Positions 1 through 62,441 of a stretch of 64,000 nt of DNA are shown piece by piece. How positions within the stretch are numbered: the stretch's first letter is position 1; each line of letters begins with the position of its first letter. The position numbers and the translations under genes are program-made. The stretch is from a bacterium. Lineage in GTDB: Bacteria > Patescibacteriota > Minisyncoccia > UBA6257 > 2-01-FULL-56-20. Where the stretch lies: NCBI GenBank assembly GCA_027310625.1, contig DAIDAM010000003.1, forward strand, positions 2,239-66,238. Reading direction: 5' to 3'. Below the pieces are notes generated by a model. That model searched no databases, was not told the origin of the DNA, and saw nothing but the letters and a program-made list of their open reading frames with translations.

Positions 1-46
1 TATTTGTAGATACTGATGGATATTAATAGATACTGACCCGCAAAAC

Positions 47-946: not shown

Positions 947-964
947 TTTGACGCCTCACGCCAT

Positions 965-1030
965 AACGGCAATTGCGCCCGCCTACCGGCGGGCGCAGAT
1001 TCTCATGAAAGTTGCCGTTTGGTGTGGGGG
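965..1030. repeat. partial copy of an ~70-85 bp inverted-repeat (MITE-like) element; right arm TTGCCGTTTGGTGTGGGGG plus internal GC hairpin GCGCCCGCC-TACC-GGCGGGCGC
   Basis: Shares 'caattgcgc...gcgcagattc...aaagttgccgtttggtgtggggg' with the copies at 50421-50504 and 51084-51152. The left arm is truncated. Confidence 0.6.
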
Positions 1031-1072
1031 TTGACTACCATACCTCCTTGATTTACAATAATTCCCATCAAT

Positions 1073-3555: not shown

Positions 3556-3676
3556 CAGTATCTGCCAGTATCCATCAGTATCTACAAGTATCAACCAACA
3601 TCCACAAACATCTCGCCGATACCGATTGATACTCATCGATACTTATTGATGTTGTCTGAATTCGAAGAGTAAAAAC

Positions 3677-6245: not shown

Positions 6246-7775
6246 ATGAAGATAGAACTCTCAAAAATCGTCAAACCTTCATCGGCTCCGGTGTTTTTGG
6301 TTGATGACGCAAGAAAAATAAAGGAGCACAAACTTTTTAAATTTCTCGGCGCGGAAGACAAAGATTACATCGTAAGGCTCTTTGAAGAAAACGGGGACGA
6401 AGAGTTTCTGCGTTTTATTGTCCTGCCGTCGGGCAAAAAGGCCTTAATCGGCTTTCTCAAAAACAAGAAAACTTCTTTGAGAAAAATGATAATCGCGATG
6501 CGCCGCGTAATTTCCCTTGCACACCGCGAAAAAATAAAAGAAATCGCAGTCAATCTCGGAGATTTTTTGACCGCCGGCTCAAAAAGCGAAGAAATTGCCG
6601 AACTTCTCGGAACGCAACTGGAACTGGCCAATTTTGAGTTTACCGGATATAAAACGGCGCCGAAAGAAGGATGGAATTTTGTCGAACGCGTTTTTGTAAT
6701 CGGTAAGGAAAGCTCACCCTCCAAAATTTCAAAAAGAAATTTAGGAGGGCAAGCCCTCAAAAAAGCGCTCGCCGACGGGAAAATAATCGGCGAAGAAATA
6801 AACAAAGCAAGAGCGCTATCGAATACGCCCGGCGGGGATATGACCCCACAACGACTTGCTGAGGCGGCAAGTCGTGAGGGGCGCAGCGCCGGCTTTCGCG
6901 TGAAGATTCTCAAAGAAGACCAAATCAAAAAACTCGGTATGGGCGGCGTGCTCGGGGTCGCCAAGGGCTCAGCAGAACGGCCGCGGTTCATTATTATGGA
7001 ATATTTCAAAGGAAAGAAAGGCGAAAAACCGGTCGTTCTCGTCGGCAAGGGCGTGACTTTCGACACGGGCGGGTTGAACCTTAAGCCCGACAATTATATC
7101 TACGAGATGCATATGGATATGTCCGGCGGCGCGGCGGTGATTCACGCCATCGCGGCGCTGGCGCGCTTGAAGGTAAAGAAAAATATCGTCGGCTTGGTTC
7201 CGGCGGTTGAAAATATGCCTTCCGGTTCGAGCTATCATCCGGGAGATTTGCTGAAAACGCTCGGCGGAAAAACAATCGAGGTTCTGAATACCGATGCCGA
7301 AGGGCGAGTGATTCTCGCGGACGCGCTTGAGTACGCAAAAAAATACAAGCCGCAACTCGTCATTGACGTCGCGACTTTGACGGGCGCGGCGATTGCGGCT
7401 TTGGGTCAGCGTGCGTCGGCGATTTTTTCTACCGACAAAAAAACAGAAAAAGAAATGATTGACGCCGGAGAAAAAACAGGGGATTACGTTTGGCCGCTGC
7501 CGCTTTGGGAAGAATACGAAGAGGAAATAAAAGGAACATTCGGCGATTTCGCGAATGTCGGCAAAACGCGCTACGGCGGCGCGATAACCGGCGCGGTGTT
7601 TCTCTGGCAATTCGTTAAAAACCAAGCTCCAAGTTCTAATCTCCAAGATTTTCCTTGGGTTCATCTCGACATCGCGCCGCGGATGACGACAATCGAAAGC
7701 GACTCGCTCGCCAAAGGCGCCGCCGGCGCGTCCATCGCGCTTTTAGTAAAGTTTTTACGAGAAGCAAATAGATAG
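6246..7775 (+). CDS. pepA: leucyl aminopeptidase (M17 family)
   Basis: M17 signature 'NTDAEGRVILADAL', 'VGKGVTFDTGG', 'DMSGGAAV'. Length 509 aa. Confidence 0.9.
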   Translation: MKIELSKIVKPSSAPVFLVDDARKIKEHKLFKFLGAEDKDYIVRLFEENGDEEFLRFIVLPSGKKALIGFLKNKKTSLRKMIIAMRRVISLAHREKIKEIAVNLGDFLTAGSKSEEIAELLGTQLELANFEFTGYKTAPKEGWNFVERVFVIGKESSPSKISKRNLGGQALKKALADGKIIGEEINKARALSNTPGGDMTPQRLAEAASREGRSAGFRVKILKEDQIKKLGMGGVLGVAKGSAERPRFIIMEYFKGKKGEKPVVLVGKGVTFDTGGLNLKPDNYIYEMHMDMSGGAAVIHAIAALARLKVKKNIVGLVPAVENMPSGSSYHPGDLLKTLGGKTIEVLNTDAEGRVILADALEYAKKYKPQLVIDVATLTGAAIAALGQRASAIFSTDKKTEKEMIDAGEKTGDYVWPLPLWEEYEEEIKGTFGDFANVGKTRYGGAITGAVFLWQFVKNQAPSSNLQDFPWVHLDIAPRMTTIESDSLAKGAAGASIALLVKFLREANR

Positions 7776-7815: not shown

Positions 7816-7842
7816 CCCTCATTCGCGCGAATGGTAGAATAA
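7816..7842. promoter_or_regulatory. 27-bp operator/promoter motif CCCTCATTCGCGCGAATGGTAGAATAA (14-bp perfect palindrome CATTCGCGCGAATG fused to a TAGAAT -10-like box), copy 1, ~30 nt upstream of arsR-like gene
   Basis: The identical 27-mer occurs at 10078-10104. A 26-bp perfect-palindrome variant occurs at 8171-8196. All three sit immediately upstream of consecutive genes. Confidence 0.7.
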
Positions 7843-7872
7843 GAAAAGAGGTAAGGCAATCCAATGATATAA

Positions 7873-8170: not shown

Positions 8171-8196
8171 TTCCACCATTCGCGCGAATGGTGGAA
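8171..8196. promoter_or_regulatory. 26-bp perfect palindrome TTCCACCATTCGCGCGAATGGTGGAA (operator variant, copy 2) upstream of Zn-ribbon gene A
   Basis: The sequence equals its own reverse complement. It shares the CCATTCGCGCGAATGG core with the copies at 7816 and 10078. Confidence 0.7.
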
Positions 8197-8249
8197 TGTG
8201 GAAAACAAATGGAAAACAAAAAACTTTTGAAACAATCATCAAAAGTAAA

Positions 8250-10064
8250 ATGAATTCCGAAACGAGAAATTGTCAAAACTGCAAGCAGAATTTCGTCATT
8301 GATTCCGATGATTTTGCTTTCTATGAAAAAATGAAAGTTCCGCCGCCGACGTTCTGCCCGGAATGCAGAATGATAAGGCGATTCGTCTGGCGCAACGAGC
8401 GGCATCTTTTCCGGAGAAAAGACGATGCGACCGGAATGGTTCGACCCGGTTCACCACCACAGGAAATTTTCTCGAGTTTTCCGCCGCAGGTAACTGTAAA
8501 GGTTTATAACCATGATTACTGGTGGAGCGACAACTGGGACCCGTCGGACTACGGACGCGATTACGACTTTTCCCGTCCGTTTTTTGAACAATTCAGAGAA
8601 CTGTTTTACAGCGTCCCGTTGCCCGCAAGGAGCGTTTTCGACACAACCAATTCTGAATATTGCGACAACGCTTCTTATGTAAAAAATTCGTATCTTTCTT
8701 TCAATGTCGGATACTTGGAAAACTCCGCTTACTGCGTTACAACCTTCTACAGCAAAGATAATTTAGACCTCTACGAAGCAAGACACGCCGAGCTATCTTA
8801 TGAAAATTACATGTCGGACGAGGCGTATCGCGTCTTTTTTTCCGTTAATATTGAGGATTCAACCGACATCTGGTTTTCGCGAAATCTTATGGGGTGCAAT
8901 AACTGCTTCGGATGCGTGAATCTGCGCAACAAGTCCTATTACATTTTCAACAAACCGTACTCCAAAGAGGATTACTTCGCCTACATAAAACAATTTGACC
9001 TCGGCTCTTACAAAACAAAAGAAGAATTGTTGAATCGCGCCCGCAAATTCTGGATGCAGTTTCCGATGCGCTTCACGCTCGCGATAAACGTCGTTAATTC
9101 CACAGGCGAACACATTGAGCACTCGCGGAACCTGAAAAGGTGCTATTCCATCCACAAAGGAGAAAATATGGCTTACTGTCAAATTTTTGAACCGCCGGGG
9201 GCCGATTCGTACGATTGCACGGTTTTTGGCTGGGGCGCATCGCGGAGTTATGAATCCCTTGTCTGCGGCGAAGAGTGCTATGATTTAAAGTTTTGCATTG
9301 AGTGCTGGCCGAGTTTAACCAATCTTGAATATTCCGCCCATTGTCATTCCTCCAATAATCTCTTCGGCTGTATTGGTTTGAAGAAAAAAGAATACTGCAT
9401 TTTGAACAAGCAATACTCGAAAGAAGAGTATTTCAAACTCCGCGAAAAAATAATACAACATATGAACGAAATGCCCTACATAGGCAAAATCCGAAATCAG
9501 AAATCCGAAATCCGAAACATTGAATACAAATACGGGGAATTTTTTCCGGCGGAGCTTTCTCCGTTCGCTTACAACGAAACACTTGCAAACGACTTCTTCC
9601 CGCTGACGAAAGAAGAAGCGGAGGCAAAAGGATTTCTCTGGCGCGAACAGGAACGGAGGGAATACGAAACGACGATAAACGCTTTGGATTTGCCGGACAA
9701 CATCAAAGACGTTCAGGATTCCATTCTCAAGGAAATCATAAAATGCGGCGACTGCGGACGGGCGTACAGAATAATTGAGATGGAGCTTCAGTTTTACCGC
9801 CGCATCCCGCTTCCGCTGCCGCGAAAATGTCCGGAGTGCAGATTCAAAGACAGATTCAAATTTGTAAACCCGCCGAAGTTGTGGAAAGGGAAATGTCAGT
9901 GCGCGGGAGAAACCAGTGACCAGCGACCAGAGACCAGTTACAGAAACGCTGTAAAGCATTTTCACGGAGCGGAACATTGCCCGAATGAATTTGAAACATC
10001 TTACCAACCCAACAGGCCGGAAATTGTTTACTGCGAAAGCTGTTATAACAGCGAGGTTGCTTGA
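8250..10064 (+). CDS. multi-zinc-ribbon protein A (N-terminal CxxC...CPxCR ribbon, internal Cys-containing repeats, C-terminal double ribbon)
   Basis: Start moved to 'MNSETRNCQNCKQNF' by analogy with paralog B ('MNNETKTCQNCKNQF'); the ORF-track start at 8196 lies inside the palindrome. Motifs 'KVPPPTFCPECRMIRR', 'NCFGCVNLRNKSYYIFNKPYSKEDYF', 'FGCIGLKKKEYCILNKQYSKEEYF', 'CGDCGRAYRIIEMELQFYRRIPLPLPRKCPECR'. Confidence 0.7.
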   Translation: MNSETRNCQNCKQNFVIDSDDFAFYEKMKVPPPTFCPECRMIRRFVWRNERHLFRRKDDATGMVRPGSPPQEIFSSFPPQVTVKVYNHDYWWSDNWDPSDYGRDYDFSRPFFEQFRELFYSVPLPARSVFDTTNSEYCDNASYVKNSYLSFNVGYLENSAYCVTTFYSKDNLDLYEARHAELSYENYMSDEAYRVFFSVNIEDSTDIWFSRNLMGCNNCFGCVNLRNKSYYIFNKPYSKEDYFAYIKQFDLGSYKTKEELLNRARKFWMQFPMRFTLAINVVNSTGEHIEHSRNLKRCYSIHKGENMAYCQIFEPPGADSYDCTVFGWGASRSYESLVCGEECYDLKFCIECWPSLTNLEYSAHCHSSNNLFGCIGLKKKEYCILNKQYSKEEYFKLREKIIQHMNEMPYIGKIRNQKSEIRNIEYKYGEFFPAELSPFAYNETLANDFFPLTKEEAEAKGFLWREQERREYETTINALDLPDNIKDVQDSILKEIIKCGDCGRAYRIIEMELQFYRRIPLPLPRKCPECRFKDRFKFVNPPKLWKGKCQCAGETSDQRPETSYRNAVKHFHGAEHCPNEFETSYQPNRPEIVYCESCYNSEVA

Positions 10065-10077
10065 GTGGAAATTATGT

Positions 10078-10104
10078 CCCTCATTCGCGCGAATGGTAGA
10101 ATAA
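10078..10104. promoter_or_regulatory. operator/promoter motif copy 3 (identical 27-mer to copy 1) upstream of Zn-ribbon gene B
   Basis: CCCTCATTCGCGCGAATGGTAGAATAA, ~50 nt upstream of the start at 10153. Confidence 0.7.
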
Positions 10105-10152
10105 ACAAAACAACAAAATCATAGGCGCTATGACTAGTCATAGCGGTATAAA

Positions 10153-11880
10153 ATGAACAACGAAACCAAAACCTGTCAAAATTGCAAAAACCAGTTTGCC
10201 GTCGAGCCAGATGATTTTGATTTCTACGCCAAAATCAAAGTCCCGCCGCCGACGTTCTGCCCGCCGTGCCGACTGCAGAGGCGGCTGGCGTTTTTCAATA
10301 TTTTCAATCTCTATAAACGGCCGTGCGATTTATGCAAGAAAGATTTCATTTCGATGTATCGAGCCGACACGCCGTACACTATTTACTGCCCGAAATGCTG
10401 GTGGAGCGACGATTGGGATACTTTTGAATACGGCAGAGAATACGATTTTTCGCGGCCGTTTTTCGAGCAATACAACGAACTACTGCATCGAGTTCCGCTC
10501 ATCGGCGCTTCGATAGATATTCCGACAATGGAAACATCGCCGTACACGAACCATGCCGGCCATCTCAAGAATTCTTACCTTTTGTTCCACGTCGATTATG
10601 TCGAAGATTCCGCTTACGGATTTAACACATTCAACAATAAATCATTATTTGACTGTACCAATTTAATTCTATCCGAATTATCTTATGACATAATTCACGC
10701 CTACAAGATATCGCGCTCCGCCGGCTCGCAGGATTTGCTCGAATCCATCAATTGTTTCTTTATGAAGGATTCGGAAAATTGCCAAGATTGTTTTGCGTCC
10801 GCGAATTTACGGAATAAAAAACACTACATTTTCAATGAGCCGTATTCCAAAGAGGACTATTTTGACGAAATCAAGAAATGGAATTTAGGTTCTTATAAAA
10901 TTTATCAAGAAGTTAAAAAACGGGCGGAAGAGCACTGGAAAAAATTTCCGCCAGACCCGATTTATCAAAAATTTGCCATTAATTCAACGGGGAACAGGAT
11001 ATATGAGTCGAAAAACTGCAAGGAATGTTTTGAGGTCTCTTATGCCGAGGACTGCAAATGGGCGATGATGATGTACATTCGGACAATTAAGGATTGTTAC
11101 GACGTCGTCAGTTGGGGAAATAATATGTCGCGTTCGTACGAGTGCTGCAATGTCGGCGAGGATGTTTCCGAAGCGCGGTTCTGCAGCGAATCCGGACTGG
11201 GATTGATGGACGCAGAATATTGCAAACTCTCGACGGGCAACCATCATTTCGGCTGCGTATCCGTAAAGAAAGGCGATTACGTAATTCTAAACAAAAAATA
11301 TTCAGAGGATGAGTACCGGAAATTGCGCGAAAAAATTATCGCGCAAATGAACGAGTTGCCCTACGTTTCAAGGGCGACCAGCAACCGGGGACCAGAGACA
11401 AGGGAGATAATTTACAAATACGGGGAATTTTTCCCGGCGGAAATCAGCCCCTTTGCCTACAACGAAACGATTGCAAATAATTTCTTTCCCTTGGAAAAAG
11501 AAAAGGTCTTGGCGAACAGCTGGCGATGGAACGAACCGGAAACGCACGCCTACTCAATTACAAAACACGCCCAAGATTTGCCCGACCACATAAAAGACGC
11601 CGGTGACGATATTTTGAAAGAGGTAATCGCCTGCGCGAAATGCGGACGGGGATTCAGAATCATACGAATGGAACTCGATTTTCTGCGGCGGATGAATTTG
11701 CCTTTGCCGCGCGAGTGTCCGTTTTGCCGCATCGGCGAGAAATTCAATTACTGGGTCAAAGAATCGCGGCTGGTGAAACGAACCTGCGACAAATGCGGCG
11801 CGGAATTCGACAGCCCGCACACGAAAGAGAACTATCCGAAAATTCTTTGCAAAAAACACTGGCTGGAAGAAGTGGTGTAA
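10153..11880 (+). CDS. multi-zinc-ribbon protein B (tandem paralog of A)
   Basis: 575 aa, collinear with A: 'KVPPPTFCPPCRLQRR', 'YDFSRPFFEQYNEL', 'ANLRNKKHYIFNEPYSKEDYF', 'FGCVSVKKGDYVILNKKYSEDEYRKLREKIIAQMNELPYV', 'CAKCGRGFRIIRMELDFLRRMNLPLPRECPFCR'. It carries an extra CxxC...CPKCWW ribbon where A has lost the cysteines. Confidence 0.7.
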   Translation: MNNETKTCQNCKNQFAVEPDDFDFYAKIKVPPPTFCPPCRLQRRLAFFNIFNLYKRPCDLCKKDFISMYRADTPYTIYCPKCWWSDDWDTFEYGREYDFSRPFFEQYNELLHRVPLIGASIDIPTMETSPYTNHAGHLKNSYLLFHVDYVEDSAYGFNTFNNKSLFDCTNLILSELSYDIIHAYKISRSAGSQDLLESINCFFMKDSENCQDCFASANLRNKKHYIFNEPYSKEDYFDEIKKWNLGSYKIYQEVKKRAEEHWKKFPPDPIYQKFAINSTGNRIYESKNCKECFEVSYAEDCKWAMMMYIRTIKDCYDVVSWGNNMSRSYECCNVGEDVSEARFCSESGLGLMDAEYCKLSTGNHHFGCVSVKKGDYVILNKKYSEDEYRKLREKIIAQMNELPYVSRATSNRGPETREIIYKYGEFFPAEISPFAYNETIANNFFPLEKEKVLANSWRWNEPETHAYSITKHAQDLPDHIKDAGDDILKEVIACAKCGRGFRIIRMELDFLRRMNLPLPRECPFCRIGEKFNYWVKESRLVKRTCDKCGAEFDSPHTKENYPKILCKKHWLEEVV

Positions 11881-27345: not shown

Positions 27346-27516
27346 TAGAACCACCTCCTTTCACGCCCGAGTTAATACAAAAAATATCACAGGAAATATT
27401 TTCTTGCAACACGATTGTAAATTACCTGACTTTGCTGATAAAATGACACAGCAGTAATCAGCAATTAGACATCAGTAATCAGTTGTCGGCAGTCGGTTCC
27501 TAATGTCTAATGACTA

Positions 27517-34516: not shown

Positions 34517-34565
34517 TGTTTTATACTTCTGATTACTGATGTCTAGTTACTGATTACTGATCATC

Positions 34566-44606: not shown

Positions 44607-44677
44607 ACCCCGTTAGAAATCGGACGAATAACGAATTCAGGCGGAGTTATGCAACTATGTCTGATTTCTAACGGGGT
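44607..44677. other. long near-perfect inverted repeat ACCCCGTTAGAAATCGGAC...(33 nt)...GTCTGATTTCTAACGGGGT
   Basis: 18 of 19 bp complementary arms in a 500-bp non-coding gap. Possible structured RNA or regulatory site. Confidence 0.4.
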
Positions 44678-50173: not shown

Positions 50174-50420
50174 AAAACCTCCTTATTCATTGTTACAAGT
50201 TGCACATTGGCCCGAAGGCCATCCGAAAACGAAACGAGCTCTTTATCCAAGAGCTCGTTTTTGATGTCGTATGTTTCTTGTAGTGAGTTTTATCGAATCA
50301 TTACAACAGCAAAAATGAACTCTCGGACGAGTTTCTAAAGAAGAAAAATCCAAAAAAGCGGCGTTTCGAGTTCATTTTGTTTATAGGAAAAATGTTAAAG
50401 CCGGCAAGAAAAAATGTCAA

Positions 50421-50504
50421 CCCCCACACCAAACGGCAATGTATTTAATTTTTGCGCTGCGCCTGCCTGCTGGCGGCAGGCATAGTTGCCGTTTGGTGTG
50501 GGGG
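50421..50504. repeat. MITE-like element with 19-bp terminal inverted repeats CCCCCACACCAAACGGCAA / TTGCCGTTTGGTGTGGGGG and internal hairpin GCCTGCCTGC-TGGC-GGCAGGC
   Basis: Arms are exact reverse complements. Located 3' of the major pilin gene. Confidence 0.7.
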
Positions 50505-50512
50505 TAAACGAA

Positions 50513-50539
50513 AAACGCCCGCCTAAGGCGGACGTTTTT
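50513..50539. terminator. intrinsic terminator-like hairpin AACGCCCGCC-TAA-GGCGGACGTTTTT
   Basis: GC stem plus T-run, downstream of the pilin gene (minus strand). Also A-run on the other side. Confidence 0.6.
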
Positions 50540-50555
50540 CAAGAAACCAGCGAAT

Positions 50556-51008
50556 TTACTGGGTCAAAGAAATTGCGGTTCCGAGTTCTGCTGATGGCGC
50601 GCTGACGGTTACGCGTCCGGTGCTGGATGAAACCGAAACGTTATAGCCGCTGTCGTAGTCGGAAGTGCTCGTCCAGTGCGCTCCCGTCGCCGACGGGTCG
50701 AAGGGCATATTCGGAAGATAGGTGGGAACAACGCAACCCGCTATGTCGTATCCCCCGGTGTTCGCCATTTTTGTAGCCGTTTGAGGCAAAGCCCCCGCGG
50801 CGCAAGTGAAGATGCCTTTGTTGTCGGCCATGTTTTGTCCGATGGCGTTAAGTATTGCAAGAACGTTGGACTGTCTTTGCGTATTCCTTGCCTGAGCAAA
50901 CTGCCTTGCGGGGTTCAACGCAACTATTACTACCGCCGCCAAGATAGCTATGATGCCGATCACAACGAGAAGTTCTATCAAAGTGAAACCTTTCCTTGAT
51001 TGAAACAT
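50556..51008 (-). CDS. pilA: type IV major pilin (PilA-like)
   Basis: 'MFQSRKG|FTLIELLVVIGIIAILAAVV', the class III prepilin leader with cleavage/methylation site. 150 aa. Confidence 0.85.
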   Translation of the reverse strand: MFQSRKGFTLIELLVVIGIIAILAAVVIVALNPARQFAQARNTQRQSNVLAILNAIGQNMADNKGIFTCAAGALPQTATKMANTGGYDIAGCVVPTYLPNMPFDPSATGAHWTSTSDYDSGYNVSVSSSTGRVTVSAPSAELGTAISLTQ

Positions 51009-51083
51009 AATTTGAAAACCTGTAATTTCTCGACCTTTCTGATTTGTTTGATTATACCAAAAAGGAGAATTAATTTATCCACA

Positions 51084-51152
51084 CCCCCACACCAAACAGC
51101 AATTGCGCTTCGCGCAGATTCAATTTTGCAAAAGTTGCCGTTTGGTGTGGGG
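51084..51152. repeat. MITE-like element copy (arms CCCCCACACCAAACAGCAA / TTGCCGTTTGGTGTGGGGG, internal GCGCTTCGCGC hairpin)
   Basis: Sits between the pilin start and the upstream pseudopilin stop. Its internal sequence matches the partial copy at 965-1030. Confidence 0.7.
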
Positions 51153-51153
51153 G

Positions 51154-51585
51154 TCAGAAATTAGGCAATTCTTCCCGTCTCACAACGGAAAGAGTTGAAG
51201 AATTCACGGTAACCTTGAGATTTGTAAATGAGGAATTGAACTGCGCCTGTGTTGAAATCACTTTTTCTGCGGTTCCGCTCGCAACAATTGAAATTATTCT
51301 GCACGTATCGCTTGCAATGGAAATCGTTTCATTGCCGGAGTAAGAACTGTTCTGTGATAACTTCAAGAGCGCTTCTTCCACGCACGCCCTTGCAAGCAGT
51401 GAGCTCTTTTCCTTGTAAGAGGTGGTGGAAATATTAACGCGCGAAAGAAAAGAACCCGTGCTGATTACAAAAATTATCACGAGAACCATCGCGCCGATGA
51501 AAATGGCGGAAGTCAGAGCGATGTATCCCCCACACAACTTGCTTATGCGGGGGACAAGCCCTTCTTTGTTTTTAGAAAAGCTCAT
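51154..51585 (-). CDS. pseudopilin/minor pilin with extended leader (…LVPRISKLCGG|YIALTSAIFIGAMVLVIIF)
   Basis: Hydrophobic pilin-like helix after a Gly. Conserved leader motif shared with 52118 and 54158. Confidence 0.6.
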   Translation of the reverse strand: MSFSKNKEGLVPRISKLCGGYIALTSAIFIGAMVLVIIFVISTGSFLSRVNISTTSYKEKSSLLARACVEEALLKLSQNSSYSGNETISIASDTCRIISIVASGTAEKVISTQAQFNSSFTNLKVTVNSSTLSVVRREELPNF

Positions 51586-52118
51586 CTCAGATAAATTGTA
51601 TTTTCAATGGTTGTGGAAGCCCTTACAACTGCCTCGGATGTGGAAGCAACCACAGATAAAGTTATCCGGACTGCTTCAGGCGCAGTTCCGGAAGCAACAA
51701 GATGAGAAAAAACGATTTCCGTCACGTTTACGTTCCCGTTTGTAAGCGGAGCGGCAGTTCCGCCACCGCGACCCAAACGGACAGAGCCGGACGAAACGTC
51801 AAAAGTAAGAGGATTTTGCGAAAAATTGTATCTACTAAGGGTTAGAACGGAAGACGTCGCTCCTGCGGCCGGCGAGGAAACGCTTTCCGCGGAATTCAAA
51901 GCCCAAACGATTTTTCTCATCAAAAAGTCGGCTTCCGTTTCAACCTCGCGACGTGTTCTGTTTTGCGATTCCAGCGAAACAATTTGATAAAAAATTATCA
52001 CCGCAAAGCTGATGACTATCGCAAAAAGACCGGAATAAACCAGGGTTTCTACAAGAGTGAATCCTCCGCATAACTTGCTTACGTGGGGGACAAGTCCCCT
52101 TTGCAGTTTCTTTCTCAT
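51582..52118 (-). CDS. pseudopilin/minor pilin (MRKKLQRGLVPHVSKLCGG|FTLVETLVYSGLFAIVI)
   Basis: Start moved to the internal Met. The extended ORF-track N-terminus has no support. Confidence 0.65.
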   Translation of the reverse strand: MRKKLQRGLVPHVSKLCGGFTLVETLVYSGLFAIVISFAVIIFYQIVSLESQNRTRREVETEADFLMRKIVWALNSAESVSSPAAGATSSVLTLSRYNFSQNPLTFDVSSGSVRLGRGGGTAAPLTNGNVNVTEIVFSHLVASGTAPEAVRITLSVVASTSEAVVRASTTIENTIYLR

Positions 52119-52120
52119 TT

Positions 52121-53596
52121 TTACTGGCTTGAAGTTATGATTCTGAAGGCATCGTTCGACCTGACTGAAACGTAGACGAAGTTGTCCTCGTAATCTATCC
52201 CGGTGCCTACGTTGGGGAAATTGTACGAACTCCAGAGCGAAGGCGCGGAGGAAGTGGAGATATTCCATGCCTGGAACTCTTTATTCGTGTCCGATGTGGC
52301 AAGAAACGCAAGGTAATCTGTAACGTAAATCCCGTTAACCGATACGTTTCCCAAATTCGCAATGCCGAGCTGCGTCGGCGAGGAAGAATTGGAAACGTCG
52401 ATAATGATGAAATCGCTCGTTCCACCGGCTCTCCCGAGATAAGCTTTCGCGCCGGAAATGTAAATACTTTTCCCGTCGTCATTCCCCGAAGCGTTGAAAC
52501 TGCCGAGTTGCGCTATATGCGCGGGGTCGCTAACGTCGAGAATTAGAAGTTCCTTGGAATCGTCGGAGGTGGCGAGGTAAGCGGTCGTGCCGGAAACGAA
52601 AATGTCGTTCACGTCCGCTCCCACTTCGTAACTTCCGAACTCCGAGGGCGCCGCGGGATTAGAAACGTCGACGACATGAAACTCCGGTCCGCTCGCCGCT
52701 TTCGTGCCGATGTAGATTTTATTGTTGTAGAAAAACAGGCTTTGTCCCATTGCTCCTGAGCCGGAAACGCCTGGGAGTTTGAAAGACGCGAGAACGTAGG
52801 GCGCGGCGGGATTGTTCATATCTATCACCTGCAGCTGGGCGTTAGTGTCGGAATTGGCGACGTAGGCGTAATTTTGGACGGCATCGACAGCATTAAGTCC
52901 CGGACCGGTGTCAATTTTGGAAACGAGGTAGGGATTCCGGCCGTCGGTGGCGTTGATGATGAAAAAGTCGGGCTTGGTGCGATCCGACGCGGTGGCCGAC
53001 ATATAAATTATTTTGTTGATGACGTCTAAGCCGGTGGCGGACTCACCCGGCCCCAGGTCTATCGAGCCGAATGTGGTCGGATTTTTCCAATCGCCTGTCA
53101 CTCCCCCGCCACTGGTGTCTCCGCCGGTTGCCTGATTAACCTGCCAATTGGTGACAATTGTCGTCAGTTCAATTTTTTGGATGCGCAAGGGGTCGGTGCT
53201 CCAGCTCACTCGGCTCGTAATTTTTTTCTTGTTCGCGTCAACGTTTTCAACAATTATTTCTTTTAGAAATTCTCCTTGTGTGCTTGAACTTGAAACAAGT
53301 CCGCCGAAGTCGTTTTTCGCAAAAGCGATGGAATTCTCAATTGATTGCCTCGCCAAGTTAACGGCTCGGTTTGATTCCTGTGTATCCGCCAAAAGCGATT
53401 GACTGCTCGAAATTACCACTGCTATCGCCGACAAACTTATCGCGATAACGGCAAAGGCGATAAGAATTTCAAGCGTTGACTGCCCGGCTGCTCTAGAGAC
53501 CAGAGACCAGAAAGTAGAAACCGGGGGACGGAAACTAGAGACTAGAAACCGGAGACCAGAGAAAGAGAATAGGTTTGTTATTTTTGCGTTGTCCAT
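52121..53596 (-). CDS. large pilin-like protein with C-terminal LVIVD-repeat beta-propeller (putative pilus tip adhesin)
   Basis: 'AAGQSTLEILIAFAVIAISLSAIAVV' prepilin-like helix. Repeated 'YAYVANSDTNAQLQVIDMNNPAAP', 'AYLATSDDSKELLILDVSDPAHIA', 'FIIIDVSNSSSP' match LVIVD repeats. The N-terminal leader is encoded by GACCAGAGACCAG-type tandem repeats. Confidence 0.6.
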   Translation of the reverse strand: MDNAKITNLFSFSGLRFLVSSFRPPVSTFWSLVSRAAGQSTLEILIAFAVIAISLSAIAVVISSSQSLLADTQESNRAVNLARQSIENSIAFAKNDFGGLVSSSSTQGEFLKEIIVENVDANKKKITSRVSWSTDPLRIQKIELTTIVTNWQVNQATGGDTSGGGVTGDWKNPTTFGSIDLGPGESATGLDVINKIIYMSATASDRTKPDFFIINATDGRNPYLVSKIDTGPGLNAVDAVQNYAYVANSDTNAQLQVIDMNNPAAPYVLASFKLPGVSGSGAMGQSLFFYNNKIYIGTKAASGPEFHVVDVSNPAAPSEFGSYEVGADVNDIFVSGTTAYLATSDDSKELLILDVSDPAHIAQLGSFNASGNDDGKSIYISGAKAYLGRAGGTSDFIIIDVSNSSSPTQLGIANLGNVSVNGIYVTDYLAFLATSDTNKEFQAWNISTSSAPSLWSSYNFPNVGTGIDYEDNFVYVSVRSNDAFRIITSSQ

Positions 53597-53645: not shown

Positions 53646-54158
53646 TCACCAATCAATCCTACCCTCGGAATTAACGAACACATTTAGCGTTTTCACGCCG
53701 TTGGAAATTGAAACCGTGCCGGAGACGTTGGAGTTACCATCAAGTTGCGAAAAAACAATCTCCGGTGCACCGCTGATATTCATTCCGCCCGTTCTTGGAA
53801 AAAACTCGTCGTAAACGGGATTTCTCGAGGCGTATAAGCTGCCCTGAAAAATGACGTAATTCCCCGCTGAGCCGAAGTAAATGCCGTGAGCGGACTGGTT
53901 CACGTTGTTCTGCGCGCTGTTGCGGGCTTTTTTCAAAATATAGACAACTGTATCGCGCTCCGCGCTTATTACCTTTTGCCTGTAAAAATCAACGCTTACG
54001 AGCAAACCGAGCGAAAAAATCACAACCATTATGAAAGCGGATATGGAAATTTCCCACAGAGTGAATCCCCCGCATAAATCATACTTTGTGCGGGGGAGCC
54101 CCTCACATAACTTGCTTATGCGGGGGGTATCGTCAGCGAATACTTGAGGTAACTTCAT
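53646..54158 (-). CDS. pseudopilin with extended leader (…DTPRISKLCEGLPRTKYDLCGG|FTLWEISISAFIMVVIF)
   Basis: Pilin-like N-terminal helix. The leader motif is duplicated. Confidence 0.6.
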   Translation of the reverse strand: MKLPQVFADDTPRISKLCEGLPRTKYDLCGGFTLWEISISAFIMVVIFSLGLLVSVDFYRQKVISAERDTVVYILKKARNSAQNNVNQSAHGIYFGSAGNYVIFQGSLYASRNPVYDEFFPRTGGMNISGAPEIVFSQLDGNSNVSGTVSISNGVKTLNVFVNSEGRIDW

Positions 54159-57393: not shown

Positions 57394-57605
57394 GCCAATT
57401 TTACCCGCGAGGGCAAGTTTTTATCTGCATTTATTCAATACTACACGCAGCCCGAGTGGTTGTAAAATTGAGCACCCCGCACCATTTGTGGCACGGTGCA
57501 TGCACATTCTTTGTCTGTAGCCGATAGGCGGCTTCGCCTTTATTGTGTAATATATTGACGTTCATACTTGCAAATGGTGCGGGGTTAAGATTTTGTAGAA
57601 AAAAT

Positions 57606-62342: not shown

Positions 62343-62441
62343 TATTAGCAACCAGAATTTTGAGACCAGAAACCGGAGTTATTTTTACTCAACAGTCGCT
62401 TTGTCTCTGGTCGCTGGTCTCTGGTCGCTGGTCGCTGGTCG

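What the first reader, a model, noticed from the sequence alone, without database searches (positions are those of the whole stretch)
50421..51152. MITE-like inverted-repeat element in three copies, two of them bracketing the major pilin gene
An element with 19-bp terminal inverted repeats CCCCCACACCAAAC(G/A)GCAA...TTGCCGTTTGGTGTGGGGG and an internal GC hairpin occurs at 50421-50504 (3' of pilA), at 51084-51152 (5' of pilA), and as a left-truncated copy at 965-1030 (3' of secF). The copies at 965 and 51084 share the interior 'caattgcgc...gcgcagattc...aaagttgccg'. Flanking the pilin gene on both sides could promote pilin-gene recombination or replacement, or simply provide hairpin terminator/attenuator structures.
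Basis: seen in the sequence. Interest (0 to 1): 0.6.

Follow-up and report, generated by a model that had tools for sequence, protein, structure and literature searches.

The report
Hairpin mini-transposons landing on promoters
The three repeats are copies of a previously undescribed family of tiny non-coding transposons (MITEs) found in several Patescibacteria; they insert at the sequence TTGA, usually the first four bases of a promoter, and nothing suggests they drive pilin-gene exchange.

Summary
The 19-nt arm occurs five times in the window (0 expected), forming three hairpin elements at 953-1030, 50421-50504 and 51084-51153. The first is full length with a diverged left arm, not truncated.

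It is a true MITE family. About 32 distinct copies (38-169 nt) were recovered from other Patescibacteria contigs. All have near-identical 20-nt terminal inverted repeats and unrelated interiors. An exactly 4-bp target-site duplication is perfect in 19 of 32 copies (p=6.5e-14), mostly TTGA/TCAA. Relatives have clean or near-clean empty sites at all three window positions. Two copies in another genome sit in frame inside a prmC-like gene.

The target is TTGA(C). Nine of 13 TTGA flanks carry a -10 box 16-18 nt downstream (15% at control TTGA sites), so the elements abut intact promoters, including two in this window.

No strand bias supports an RNA role. PilA is 81-83% identical in relatives that lack the elements, so bracketing of pilA looks incidental. 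No transposase partner was found.

Verdict: a new MITE family with an unusual promoter-box target; moderately interesting.

The parts
953..1030 (.). MITE copy A (78 nt), 6 nt after the secF stop codon. Left arm 953-972 is diverged, with 3 substitutions and a bulged T at 964. Right arm is 1011-1030. The interior holds a GC hairpin plus an AT-rich stretch.
   Evidence: 50.7 bits, E 6e-11; -52.6 kcal/mol, z -8.2
948..951 (.). Left target-site duplication TTGA of copy A; one extra base, c952, lies between it and the arm.
   Evidence: The empty site in relative L108 has a single TTGA.
1031..1059 (+). Promoter-like site TTGACT-17-TACAAT for the sigma70_r4/HARE-HTH gene (1073-2104). Its first four bases (1031-1034) are the right TSD of copy A.
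   Evidence: 10 of 12 matches. The same promoter is present without an element in L108 and L095.
50421..50504 (.). MITE copy B (84 nt) with perfect 19-nt arms, lying just beyond the pilA terminator. Flanks are TCAA (50417-50420) and TAAA (50505-50508), a 3-of-4 match.
   Evidence: (61.5 bits). Absent after pilA in relatives L102 and L104.
50392..50420 (-). Promoter-like site TTGACA-17-TAACAT abutting copy B. It drives a conserved 25-codon ORF plus terminator (about 50215-50392, minus strand).
   Evidence: 10 of 12 matches. The orthologous promoter TTGACA-17-TACTAT is present without the element in L102.
51084..51153 (.). MITE copy C (70 nt), starting directly after the stop codon (51154-51156) of the last minor-pilin gene and upstream of the pilA promoter. 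It has no recognisable TSD (CACA / TCAG).
   Evidence: (61.3 bits). Empty sites in L101, L104 and L102 read stop codon, 4-11 nt, then TGTGGATAAA.
51051..51083 (-). pilA promoter region, on the minus strand TGTGGATAAA-N-TGGTATAAT. It is conserved in relatives and not part of the element.
   Evidence: read from the sequences of the window, L101, L104 and L102 printed side by side
50556..51008 (-). Major pilin gene pilA (150 aa, N_methyl motif), bracketed by copies B and C.
50510..50545 (-). pilA's own intrinsic terminator (GC stem plus T-run), separate from copy B.

Best explanation
The three repeats are copies of a non-autonomous DNA transposon (MITE) family found in Patescibacteria (CPR bacteria). 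An element consists of two 20-22-bp terminal inverted repeats, CCCCCACACCA(T)AAC(G/A)GCAAG ... CTTGC(C/T)GTT(A)TGGTGTGGGGG. Between them lies an interior of anything from 3 to about 130 nt with no coding capacity. Shown here: the element inserts with an exactly 4-bp target-site duplication. The preferred target is TTGA, usually followed by C. It is present or absent at orthologous sites in related genomes. It can sit in frame inside genes. Inferred: it is moved in trans by a DDE-type (cut-and-paste, staggered-cut) transposase that recognises the conserved arms. That enzyme was not found. In these AT-rich, tightly packed genomes TTGAC is mostly the -35 hexamer of sigma-70-type promoters. Because TTGA is duplicated, the promoter is rebuilt at the element's outer edge and the insertion is tolerated. 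This explains why copies A and B abut good promoters. Copy C likewise fills one of the few free intergenic gaps, although it abuts no -35 box and has no TSD. Bracketing of pilA follows from pilA having free intergenic DNA on both sides. It is not a pilin-exchange device. Once transcribed as 3' or 5' untranslated RNA, the 20-bp perfect stems would form very stable hairpins. A side effect on transcript stability or RNase III processing, as known for Correia elements, is plausible but untested.
For: Repeat is real: (5 arms, 0 expected). Family: the metagenome and genome scans gave paired arms on about 40 contigs; 32 distinct copies of 38-169 nt; the covariance model scores 31.9-76.2 bits. TSD: 19 of 32 copies have a perfect 4-bp direct repeat abutting both ends. 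The cross-copy control rate is 7.6%, p = 6.5e-14. Repeats of 5 or 6 bp: 0. Reverse-complementary flanks: 0. TSDs are varied: TTGA x6, TCAA x4, TTTA, TAAA, TTTG, CTTG, TGGG, CTGA, CTTT, TTTT. Empty sites: the pilA upstream and downstream sites are empty in L101, L104 and L102. The secF junction is empty in L108, with a single TTGA inside TTGACT-17-TAAAAT, and filled in the window and in L031. Coding insertions: two copies lie in frame in a prmC/hemK-like ORF of L072; the alignment to solved HemK structures shows one as a ~29-residue insertion. Target: C follows the TSD in 17 of 26 sites. Nine of 13 TTGA flanks have a -10-like hexamer at 16-18 nt, against 15% of intergenic TTGA sites, p = 2e-5. 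The independent scan tool calls both window promoters. Against a strand-specific RNA role: G-U pairs 11 on the sense strand vs 13 on the antisense strand; bulge side 7 vs 6. Copies A and C share interior sequence, as expected for recent copies within one genome. Short-read contigs of the same population end at the elements (L023, L099), as repeats cause.
Against: No autonomous element with these arms and no transposase was found in the window or in about 0.5 Mb of related loci, so the mobilising enzyme is purely inferred. Copy C has no TSD, and copy B has only 3 of 4. Interiors differ almost completely between copies while the arms are about 97% paired and nearly invariant across genomes. In one orthologous trio the arms are 90-100% identical, against 73-83% for flanks and 58-86% for interiors. 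That is more than simple neutral decay of old copies predicts and could mean the arms are under selection in the host. The promoter association could result from selection on survivors rather than from target choice.
Confidence: 0.85

Rival explanations
1. The hairpins are mainly host-functional elements (domesticated): insulators, RNA-stabilising 3' hairpins or RNase III sites between transcription units. They would be kept by selection, and mobility would only be their origin.
For: Arms are nearly invariant across distant genomes while interiors are free. The orthologous trio keeps the arms better than the flanks. Copies sit between gene ends and promoters. Stems are very stable, z -6.7 to -8.2. 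Two compensatory positions keep pairing.
Against: There is no preference of G-U pairs or bulge side for the transcribed strand. The nearest relatives do without the elements at all three sites. Copies occur inside coding sequence. Paired changes in both arms are equally expected for transposase-recognised TIRs. The outer hairpin has no U-tract.
Confidence: 0.2
2. The two copies around pilA act as recombination or cassette sites (composite-transposon or integron-attC-like) that allow pilin gene replacement, inversion or deletion.
For: Two of the three copies lie 579 bp apart around pilA. The outer arms form a 733-bp inverted-repeat unit whose outer flanks TCAA / TCAG match at 3 of 4 positions.
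Against: pilA, its promoter and its terminator are orthologous and well conserved in relatives that lack both elements (81-83% identity, higher than PilC). The ends are CCCCC/GGGGG, not attC core sites (read directly from the sequence). No integrase is nearby. One arrangement is seen in three assemblies. With about 60 intergenic gaps and 3 copies, two neighbouring gaps being hit by chance is roughly a 1-in-10 event (own estimate).
Confidence: 0.04
3. It is a REP/REPIN-like element spread by a single-copy HUH (RAYT, IS200/IS605-like) transposase acting on single-stranded hairpins.
For: Short palindromic, mostly intergenic repeats with conserved stems and a bulged base. The arms are conserved across a whole lineage, which would suit a vertically inherited enzyme.
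Against: A 4-bp target duplication of variable sequence flanks most copies. HUH single-strand transposition makes no duplication (established knowledge). There is no GTAG motif in the arms (read directly from the sequence). Both orientations are equally frequent relative to genes. No Y1 transposase was seen in the ORFs scanned.
Confidence: 0.04
4. The three hairpins are unrelated terminators that look alike by chance.
For: They lie at gene ends.
Against: Identical 19-mers with 0 expected by chance; a family across many genomes; TSDs; no T-run after the stems.
Confidence: 0.01

Closest known systems
Correia repeat-enclosed elements (CREE / nemis) of Neisseria
   Same: Short non-coding elements bounded by ~20-26-bp inverted repeats. 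They are dispersed mostly between genes and often next to promoters. They fold into long hairpins in transcripts, which in Neisseria are cut by RNase III (review PMC10969869).
   Different: Correia elements duplicate TA and carry promoter parts and an IHF site inside a conserved ~100-150-bp body (own knowledge plus PMC10969869). Here the duplication is 4 bp (TTGA), the promoter belongs to the target rather than the element, the body is not conserved and can be as short as 3 nt, the arm sequence is unrelated, and the hosts are Patescibacteria.
Rickettsia palindromic elements (RPE)
   Same: Palindromic mobile repeats that can sit in frame inside protein-coding genes without destroying the reading frame (PMC10969869). 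Compare the two copies in the prmC-like gene of L072.
   Different: RPEs are ~100-150 bp, restricted to Rickettsia, and mostly intragenic. Most copies here are intergenic. There is no sequence relation.
REP / REPIN elements with RAYT transposases
   Same: Very short conserved palindromes, with conserved stems and free loops, abundant in intergenic DNA.
   Different: REPs have a GTAG head, make no target duplication and depend on an HUH enzyme (own knowledge). Here there is a 4-bp TSD and no GTAG (read from the sequence).
IS1380 family (prokaryotic relatives of piggyBac), IS701 and the IS5 group as possible parents
   Same: From memory of the ISfinder family table: 4-bp (IS701, IS5 group) or 4-5-bp (IS1380) duplications, and IS1380 ends beginning with CC. 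The elements here begin CCCCC and duplicate 4 bp.
   Different: This is a lead only. No transposase or full-length IS with these arms was found, and the arm sequence matched nothing in the plasmid or phage collections.

Membership tests
MITE (miniature inverted-repeat transposable element) | Short (tens to a few hundred bp) and non-coding | tested here: met
   38-169 nt; interiors unalignable and without ORFs
MITE | Terminal inverted repeats | tested here: met
   20 paired positions, 97.3% of cells paired in 26 copies
MITE | Target-site duplication of fixed length | tested here: met
   Exactly 4 bp; 19 of 32 perfect; p = 6.5e-14 against the cross-copy control
MITE | Multiple dispersed copies and presence/absence at orthologous sites | tested here: met
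   3 copies in 64 kb. Empty sites in L101, L102, L104 and L108. Filled orthologous sites in L031, and in L064, L069 and L025.
MITE | A related autonomous IS with the same ends supplying the transposase | tested here: inconclusive
   None in the window or in the held loci.
Correia element (Neisseria) | TA duplication, conserved ~26-bp Correia TIR, IHF site | tested here: not met
   The duplication is 4 bp, mostly TTGA. The arms are CCCCCACACC..., unlike the Correia TIR (the Correia sequence is from memory).
REP/REPIN-RAYT | No target duplication; GTAG head; associated Y1 HUH transposase | tested here: not met
   A TSD is present. There is no GTAG in the arms (sequence). No such gene is among the scanned ORFs.
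Integron attC site | Terminal core sites RYYYAAC / GTTRRRY, co-oriented arrays next to intI | tested here: not met
   The ends are CCCCC / GGGGG. Copies are scattered. No integrase was found among the window ORFs scanned.
Intrinsic (rho-independent) terminator | GC-rich stem directly followed by a U-tract | tested here: not met
   The outer stems are followed by TTGAC.., TAAAC.., TCAGA.. or TGTGG... The terminator scan reports pilA's own terminator (50516-50530) and a few short stems lying within the elements, but no outer element hairpin.
Any Rfam RNA family | Score at or above the family's gathering threshold | tested here: not met
   Only two tRNAs in the window. The best sub-threshold hit on the elements is 26.8 bits against a cut-off of 55.
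IS1380 / piggyBac-like derivative | Ends and TSD matching an IS1380-family transposon present in the same genomes | not testable with these tools
   The resemblance (CC ends, 4-5-bp TSD) is recalled from the ISfinder table. No transposase is available to compare.

The most novel reading that the evidence does not exclude
This is a Patescibacteria-wide superfamily of hairpin transposons whose transposase specifically chooses the -35 hexamer (TTGAC) of sigma-70-type promoters and rebuilds it by duplicating TTGA. Forms consisting only of the two arms (27-38 nt, e.g. L067, L047:11219, L091:5288) would then be among the smallest mobile DNAs known. In this reading the invariant arms are kept by selection, either by a vertically inherited single-copy transposase or because the hairpins have become insulators between transcription units in these very compact genomes. 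The related 27-30-nt hairpins inserted in frame into prepilin leader peptides would belong to the same system.
Probability: 0.25. Interest if true: 0.7.

Novelty: new member of a known kind. Interest (0 to 1): 0.45.

Why it matters
I found no description of MITEs in the candidate phyla radiation. The recent review of prokaryotic MITEs does not mention Patescibacteria, and no paper in the library contains the arm sequence. These bacteria have tiny, dense genomes that are thought to carry little mobile DNA. A transposon family that survives there by landing on the -35 box and restoring it would show how selfish DNA fits into a streamlined genome. It also gives a ready marker of promoters, of strain variation and of assembly breaks in CPR metagenomes. 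In practice, the elements fragment short-read assemblies and add about 26 residues to proteins when in frame, which annotators should recognise. For pilus biology the message is negative: nothing here indicates pilin variation.

Tried and rejected
1. Rfam at gathering and at permissive thresholds: only tRNAs and noise.
2. Literature search for the arm sequences and for MITEs in CPR: nothing.
3. BLAST of an element against the plasmid and phage collections, and an exact-pattern scan of viral contigs: only chance hits.
4. Search for an autonomous parent. No pair of CCCC...GGGG 16-mers 0.6-3.5 kb apart enclosing an ORF in any held locus, apart from the pilA pair itself. No transposase among 30 of the larger window ORFs. 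No protein family recurs next to copies except by synteny or the common type IV pilus ATPases.
5. Strand-specific RNA function. The two G-U pairs of copy A on the sense strand looked suggestive, but across 21 copies with inferable sense strand the G-U pairs split 11 vs 13, and across 20 of them the bulge side splits 7 vs 6. Rejected.
6. DNA-uptake-sequence idea (the window holds pilus and ComEC genes). Rejected, because arms occur only as pairs, only 5 per 64 kb, and with TSDs.
7. attC, REP and terminator readings: see the membership table.
8. Host range beyond CPR. The 'Gammaproteobacteria' MAG carrying long copies proved to be a Parcubacteria-type genome. The 'Saccharibacteria' MAG is a close relative of the window organism.
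9. Single unpaired arm matches in the genome and metagenome scans (Bacteroides, Eubacteriales, Chitinophaga and others) lie in unrelated sequence without a partner arm. I treat them as chance or unrelated.

Full report
THE OBSERVATION

The arm TTGCCGTTTGGTGTGGGGG occurs five times in the window, with at most one mismatch. None was found in 100 shuffles. The arms pair up into three elements at 953-1030, 50421-50504 and 51084-51153. A covariance model built from 26 family members finds exactly these three at 50.7-61.5 bits. Nothing comparable exists elsewhere in the 64 kb.

The copy after secF is not truncated. Its left arm is present at 953-972 with three substitutions and a one-base bulge, and the whole element folds at -52.6 kcal/mol. 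All three copies are far more stable than shuffled controls (z -6.7 to -8.2).

CONTEXT

The window comes from a Patescibacteria genome near Candidatus Liptonbacteria. The closest SecF homologues, 71-77% identical, carry that label or 'Patescibacteria group'.

- Copy A lies between secF (47-946) and a sigma70_r4/HARE-HTH gene.
- Copies B and C bracket the major pilin gene. This gene sits at the end of a type IV pilus operon: T2SSE ATPase, PilC, three minor pilins and an LVIVD-repeat protein.
- pilA has its own promoter (TGTGGATAAA...TGGTATAAT) and its own canonical terminator. Both are separate from the elements.

A WIDESPREAD FAMILY

Exact-pattern scans of species-representative genomes and of metagenome contigs returned paired arms on about 40 contigs. 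Many come from groundwater samples enriched for ultra-small cells.

After removing duplicates there are about 32 distinct copies. Their consensus is CCCCCACACCA(T)AAC(G/A)GCAAG - interior - CTTGC(C/T)GTT(A)TGGTGTGGGGG.

- Twenty positions pair, and 97.3% of cells form standard pairs.
- Two positions show compensatory changes.
- One arm often carries a single extra base.
- Interiors run from 3 nt (L067, a bare 38-nt hairpin) to about 130 nt. They cannot be aligned between most copies, though many hold a small GC hairpin next to an AT-rich stretch.
- Subfamilies share only the outer ten bases (L044:1284, L080:10167).

Every host that could be checked is a Patescibacterium.
- The MAG labelled Saccharibacteria (L001) has a pilus operon 71% identical in PilC to the window's.
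- The MAG labelled Gammaproteobacteria, which carries 136-169-nt copies, has a MurG whose nearest named relatives are Parcubacteria/Patescibacteria.

IT IS MOBILE DNA

First, target-site duplication. Nineteen of 32 copies are flanked by a perfect direct repeat of exactly 4 bp. The same test with 5 or 6 bp gives zero, and reverse-complementary flanks give zero. Pairing the left flank of one copy with the right flank of another matches in only 7.6% of cases (p = 6.5e-14). The repeats differ between copies (TTGA, TCAA, TTTA, TAAA, TTTG, CTTG, TGGG, CTGA, CTTT, TTTT). They are therefore duplicated target, not part of the element.

Second, empty sites.
- Copy C site: in relatives with PilC 82%, 71% and 68% identical (L101, L102, L104), the last minor-pilin stop codon is followed after 4-11 nt by the conserved TGTGGATAAA of the pilA promoter. 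No element is present.
- Copy B site: no element follows the pilA terminator in L102 and L104.
- Copy A site: relative L108 reads ...caggccTTGACT-N17-TAAAAT with a single TTGA. The window and L031 read TTGA-element-TTGACT-N17-TACAAT. L095 has no intact element, only a G-run before TTGACT.

Third, insertion into a gene. In L072 two copies lie inside a prmC/hemK-like gene. Each insert plus its duplication is a multiple of three (81 and 78 nt), and the reading frame stays open. Alignment to solved HemK structures shows the second as a ~29-residue insertion between conserved blocks.

Fourth, other signs.
- Copies A and C share interior sequence, as recent siblings would.
- Short-read contigs of this same population stop at the elements (L023, L099).

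TARGET PREFERENCE

When sites are oriented by their duplication, the consensus is TTGA followed by C in 17 of 26 sites. That is the start of the -35 hexamer.

Of 13 element ends that abut TTGA, nine have a -10-like hexamer 16-18 nt downstream. The rate is 15% for TTGA sites outside long ORFs in the same loci (p = 2e-5). An independent scan calls TTGACT-17-TACAAT at 1031-1059 and TTGACA-17-TAACAT at 50420-50392. Both start at the first base outside an element.

The empty sites show that these promoters existed before the insertion (L108; L102). So the element lands on the -35 box and the duplication restores it. Whether the transposase chooses this site or selection leaves only harmless insertions cannot be told from sequence.

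The secF junction is filled in two lineages, with unrelated interiors (33-39% identity) and the bulge on opposite arms. This suggests a hot spot hit twice. An old insertion with turnover of the interior is not excluded.

DNA ELEMENT OR FUNCTIONAL RNA?

Copy A pairs better on the sense strand (-52.6 vs -43.6 kcal/mol), which hinted at selection on RNA. The family does not bear this out.
- Among the 21 copies with inferable sense strand, G-U pairs fall 11 on the sense and 13 on the antisense strand.
- Among 20 of them, the bulged arm is 5' in 7, 3' in 6 and absent in 7.
- No Rfam family matches.
- The outer stems lack a U-tract.

One point remains open. In an orthologous trio (L064, L069, L025) the arms are 90-100% identical, the flanks 73-83% and the interiors 58-86%. 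Across all hosts the arms hardly vary. This fits continued selection for transposability. It also leaves room for a host role of the hairpins. I give that 0.2.

THE PILIN QUESTION

PilA of the window is 81-83% identical over its full length to PilA of L104 and L102, and 95% over the available part of L101. That is better conserved than PilC, and all these relatives lack both elements.

The window and two independent short-read contigs show the same arrangement. The outer arms of copies B and C do form a 733-bp inverted-repeat unit, but nothing indicates it moves or recombines. With only about 60 intergenic gaps in the window, two of three insertions falling in adjacent gaps is not remarkable (my rough estimate, about 1 in 10).

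WHAT WAS NOT FOUND

No transposase and no full-length element with these arms were found in the window or in about half a megabase of related loci. Nothing similar exists in the plasmid, phage or viral collections.

The 4-bp staggered duplication points to a DDE-type enzyme. From memory of the ISfinder table, IS1380 (ends CC, 4-5 bp; the bacterial relative of piggyBac), IS701 and the IS5 group are candidates. This is a lead, not a result.

COMPARISON WITH KNOWN ELEMENTS

The elements meet every structural criterion of a MITE except the identified parent. They work most like Correia elements (hairpin-forming TIRs next to promoters). Occasionally they resemble Rickettsia palindromic elements (in-frame inserts) (PMC10969869). 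They differ from both in sequence, host, duplication length and the lack of a conserved body. They are not REP/RAYT elements, attC sites or terminators; the membership table gives the defining features that fail.

VERDICT

This is a real, mobile and apparently undescribed MITE family of Patescibacteria. Its notable trait is insertion at TTGA(C), which makes it sit on intact promoters. The link to pilin variation is not supported. The finding is of moderate interest. The more novel reading (true -35 targeting, arm-only 'nano' forms, selection on the arms) remains possible at about 0.25.

Noticed in passing
window 54067-54126 (two in tandem), 52063-52089, 51527-51553; L104:8105-8131; L101:3055-3081: There are 27-30-nt hairpins (e.g. 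CCCCCGCATAAGCAAGTTGTGTGGGGG, same CCCCC(A/G)CA...GGGGG ends as the MITE) lying in frame in the leader-peptide region of the three minor pilin genes. They sit just before the G|F prepilin cleavage site and encode ..P(R/H)ISKLCGG. They are present or absent among orthologues: gene 1 has two in the window, one in L104 and none in L101 or L102; gene 2 has one in the window and L101 only; gene 3 has one in the window only. No clean 4-bp TSD was seen. They could be arm-only relatives of the MITE or a leader variant spread by gene conversion.
   Followed up: partly
window 44608-44676 and 57474-57585: Two further MITE-like palindromic elements with CCCC ends. One is 69 nt with 19-nt arms CCCCGTTAGAAATCGGAC and a perfect TTTA/TTTA duplication. 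The other is 112 nt with arms ACCCCGCACCATTTG and no clear TSD. Neither arm occurs in the other loci fetched.
   Followed up: partly
L091:5288-5315, L005:3742-3770, L047:11219-11245, L067:625-662; nested copies in L008:1098-1125 and L057:3917-3945: Arm-only elements of 27-38 nt, e.g. CCCCCACACCTATGCATAGGTGTGGGGG. Two have a perfect CTTG duplication, and some are inserted inside longer copies. If mobile as such, they are unusually small for a transposable unit.
   Followed up: partly
window about 50215-50392 (minus strand); L102:11640-11860: A conserved unit downstream of pilA: a promoter, a 25-codon ORF (MNSKRRFFGFFFFRNSSESSFLLL* in the window...FFFTGSIESSFLLL* in L102), about 70 nt of further sequence, and a strong terminator. 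The core is nearly identical at DNA level between genomes whose PilC is 71% identical. No Rfam match.
   Followed up: partly
L005, L007, L008, L010 (CAZDOL01) and L001, L102 (CAYHXB01): Two public MAGs seem mislabelled. 'Uncultured Gammaproteobacteria' CAZDOL01 has hrcA-grpE-dnaK and a MurG closest to Parcubacteria/Patescibacteria. 'Candidatus Saccharibacteria' CAYHXB01 shares a syntenic pilus operon with this Liptonbacteria-like window.
   Followed up: partly
window 7816-7847, 8173-8204, 10078-10109: The palindrome CC(C/A)(T/C)CATTCGCGCGAATGGT(A/G)GAAT is repeated three times: once after the gene ending at 7775 and once just upstream of each of the paralogous genes 8196-10064 and 10153-11880. 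It looks like an operator-type site (families D14, I4, I13).
   Followed up: no
window 1-35 / 3556-3590, 9486-9519, 9912-9937, 27452-27482 / 34529-34559, 53503-53554, 62355-62439 and others: There are many short low-complexity repeats built of 6-8-nt units (GATACTG, GAAATCC, GACCAG, AGTCAGCG...). They recur in both orientations across the window; some lie between ORFs and some, e.g. 53503-53554, inside them. Their nature was not examined.
   Followed up: no
L102:10850-11095: In this relative the gap between the last minor pilin gene and pilA holds a tandem duplication of an ~85-nt unit. Each unit has TATAATCAGTAG.GAGGAGT...GCCGAACGCCCTGATTAATGA. This is a different way of expanding the same intergenic region.
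   Followed up: no
L095:9605-9982, L096:456-833, L097:9585-9989, L098:740-1144: Relatives carry a 125-134-aa gene with the 23S_rRNA_IVP / bAvd fold between secD and secF. In the window's own population (L099) secD and secF are adjacent, 66 nt apart, with no called gene between them.
   Followed up: no
L044:1146-2020: In a relative (SecF 74%), two elements of different subfamilies flank about 590 nt of apparently non-coding DNA inserted between rplC and rpsJ. These genes are normally adjacent in the S10 operon.
   Followed up: no
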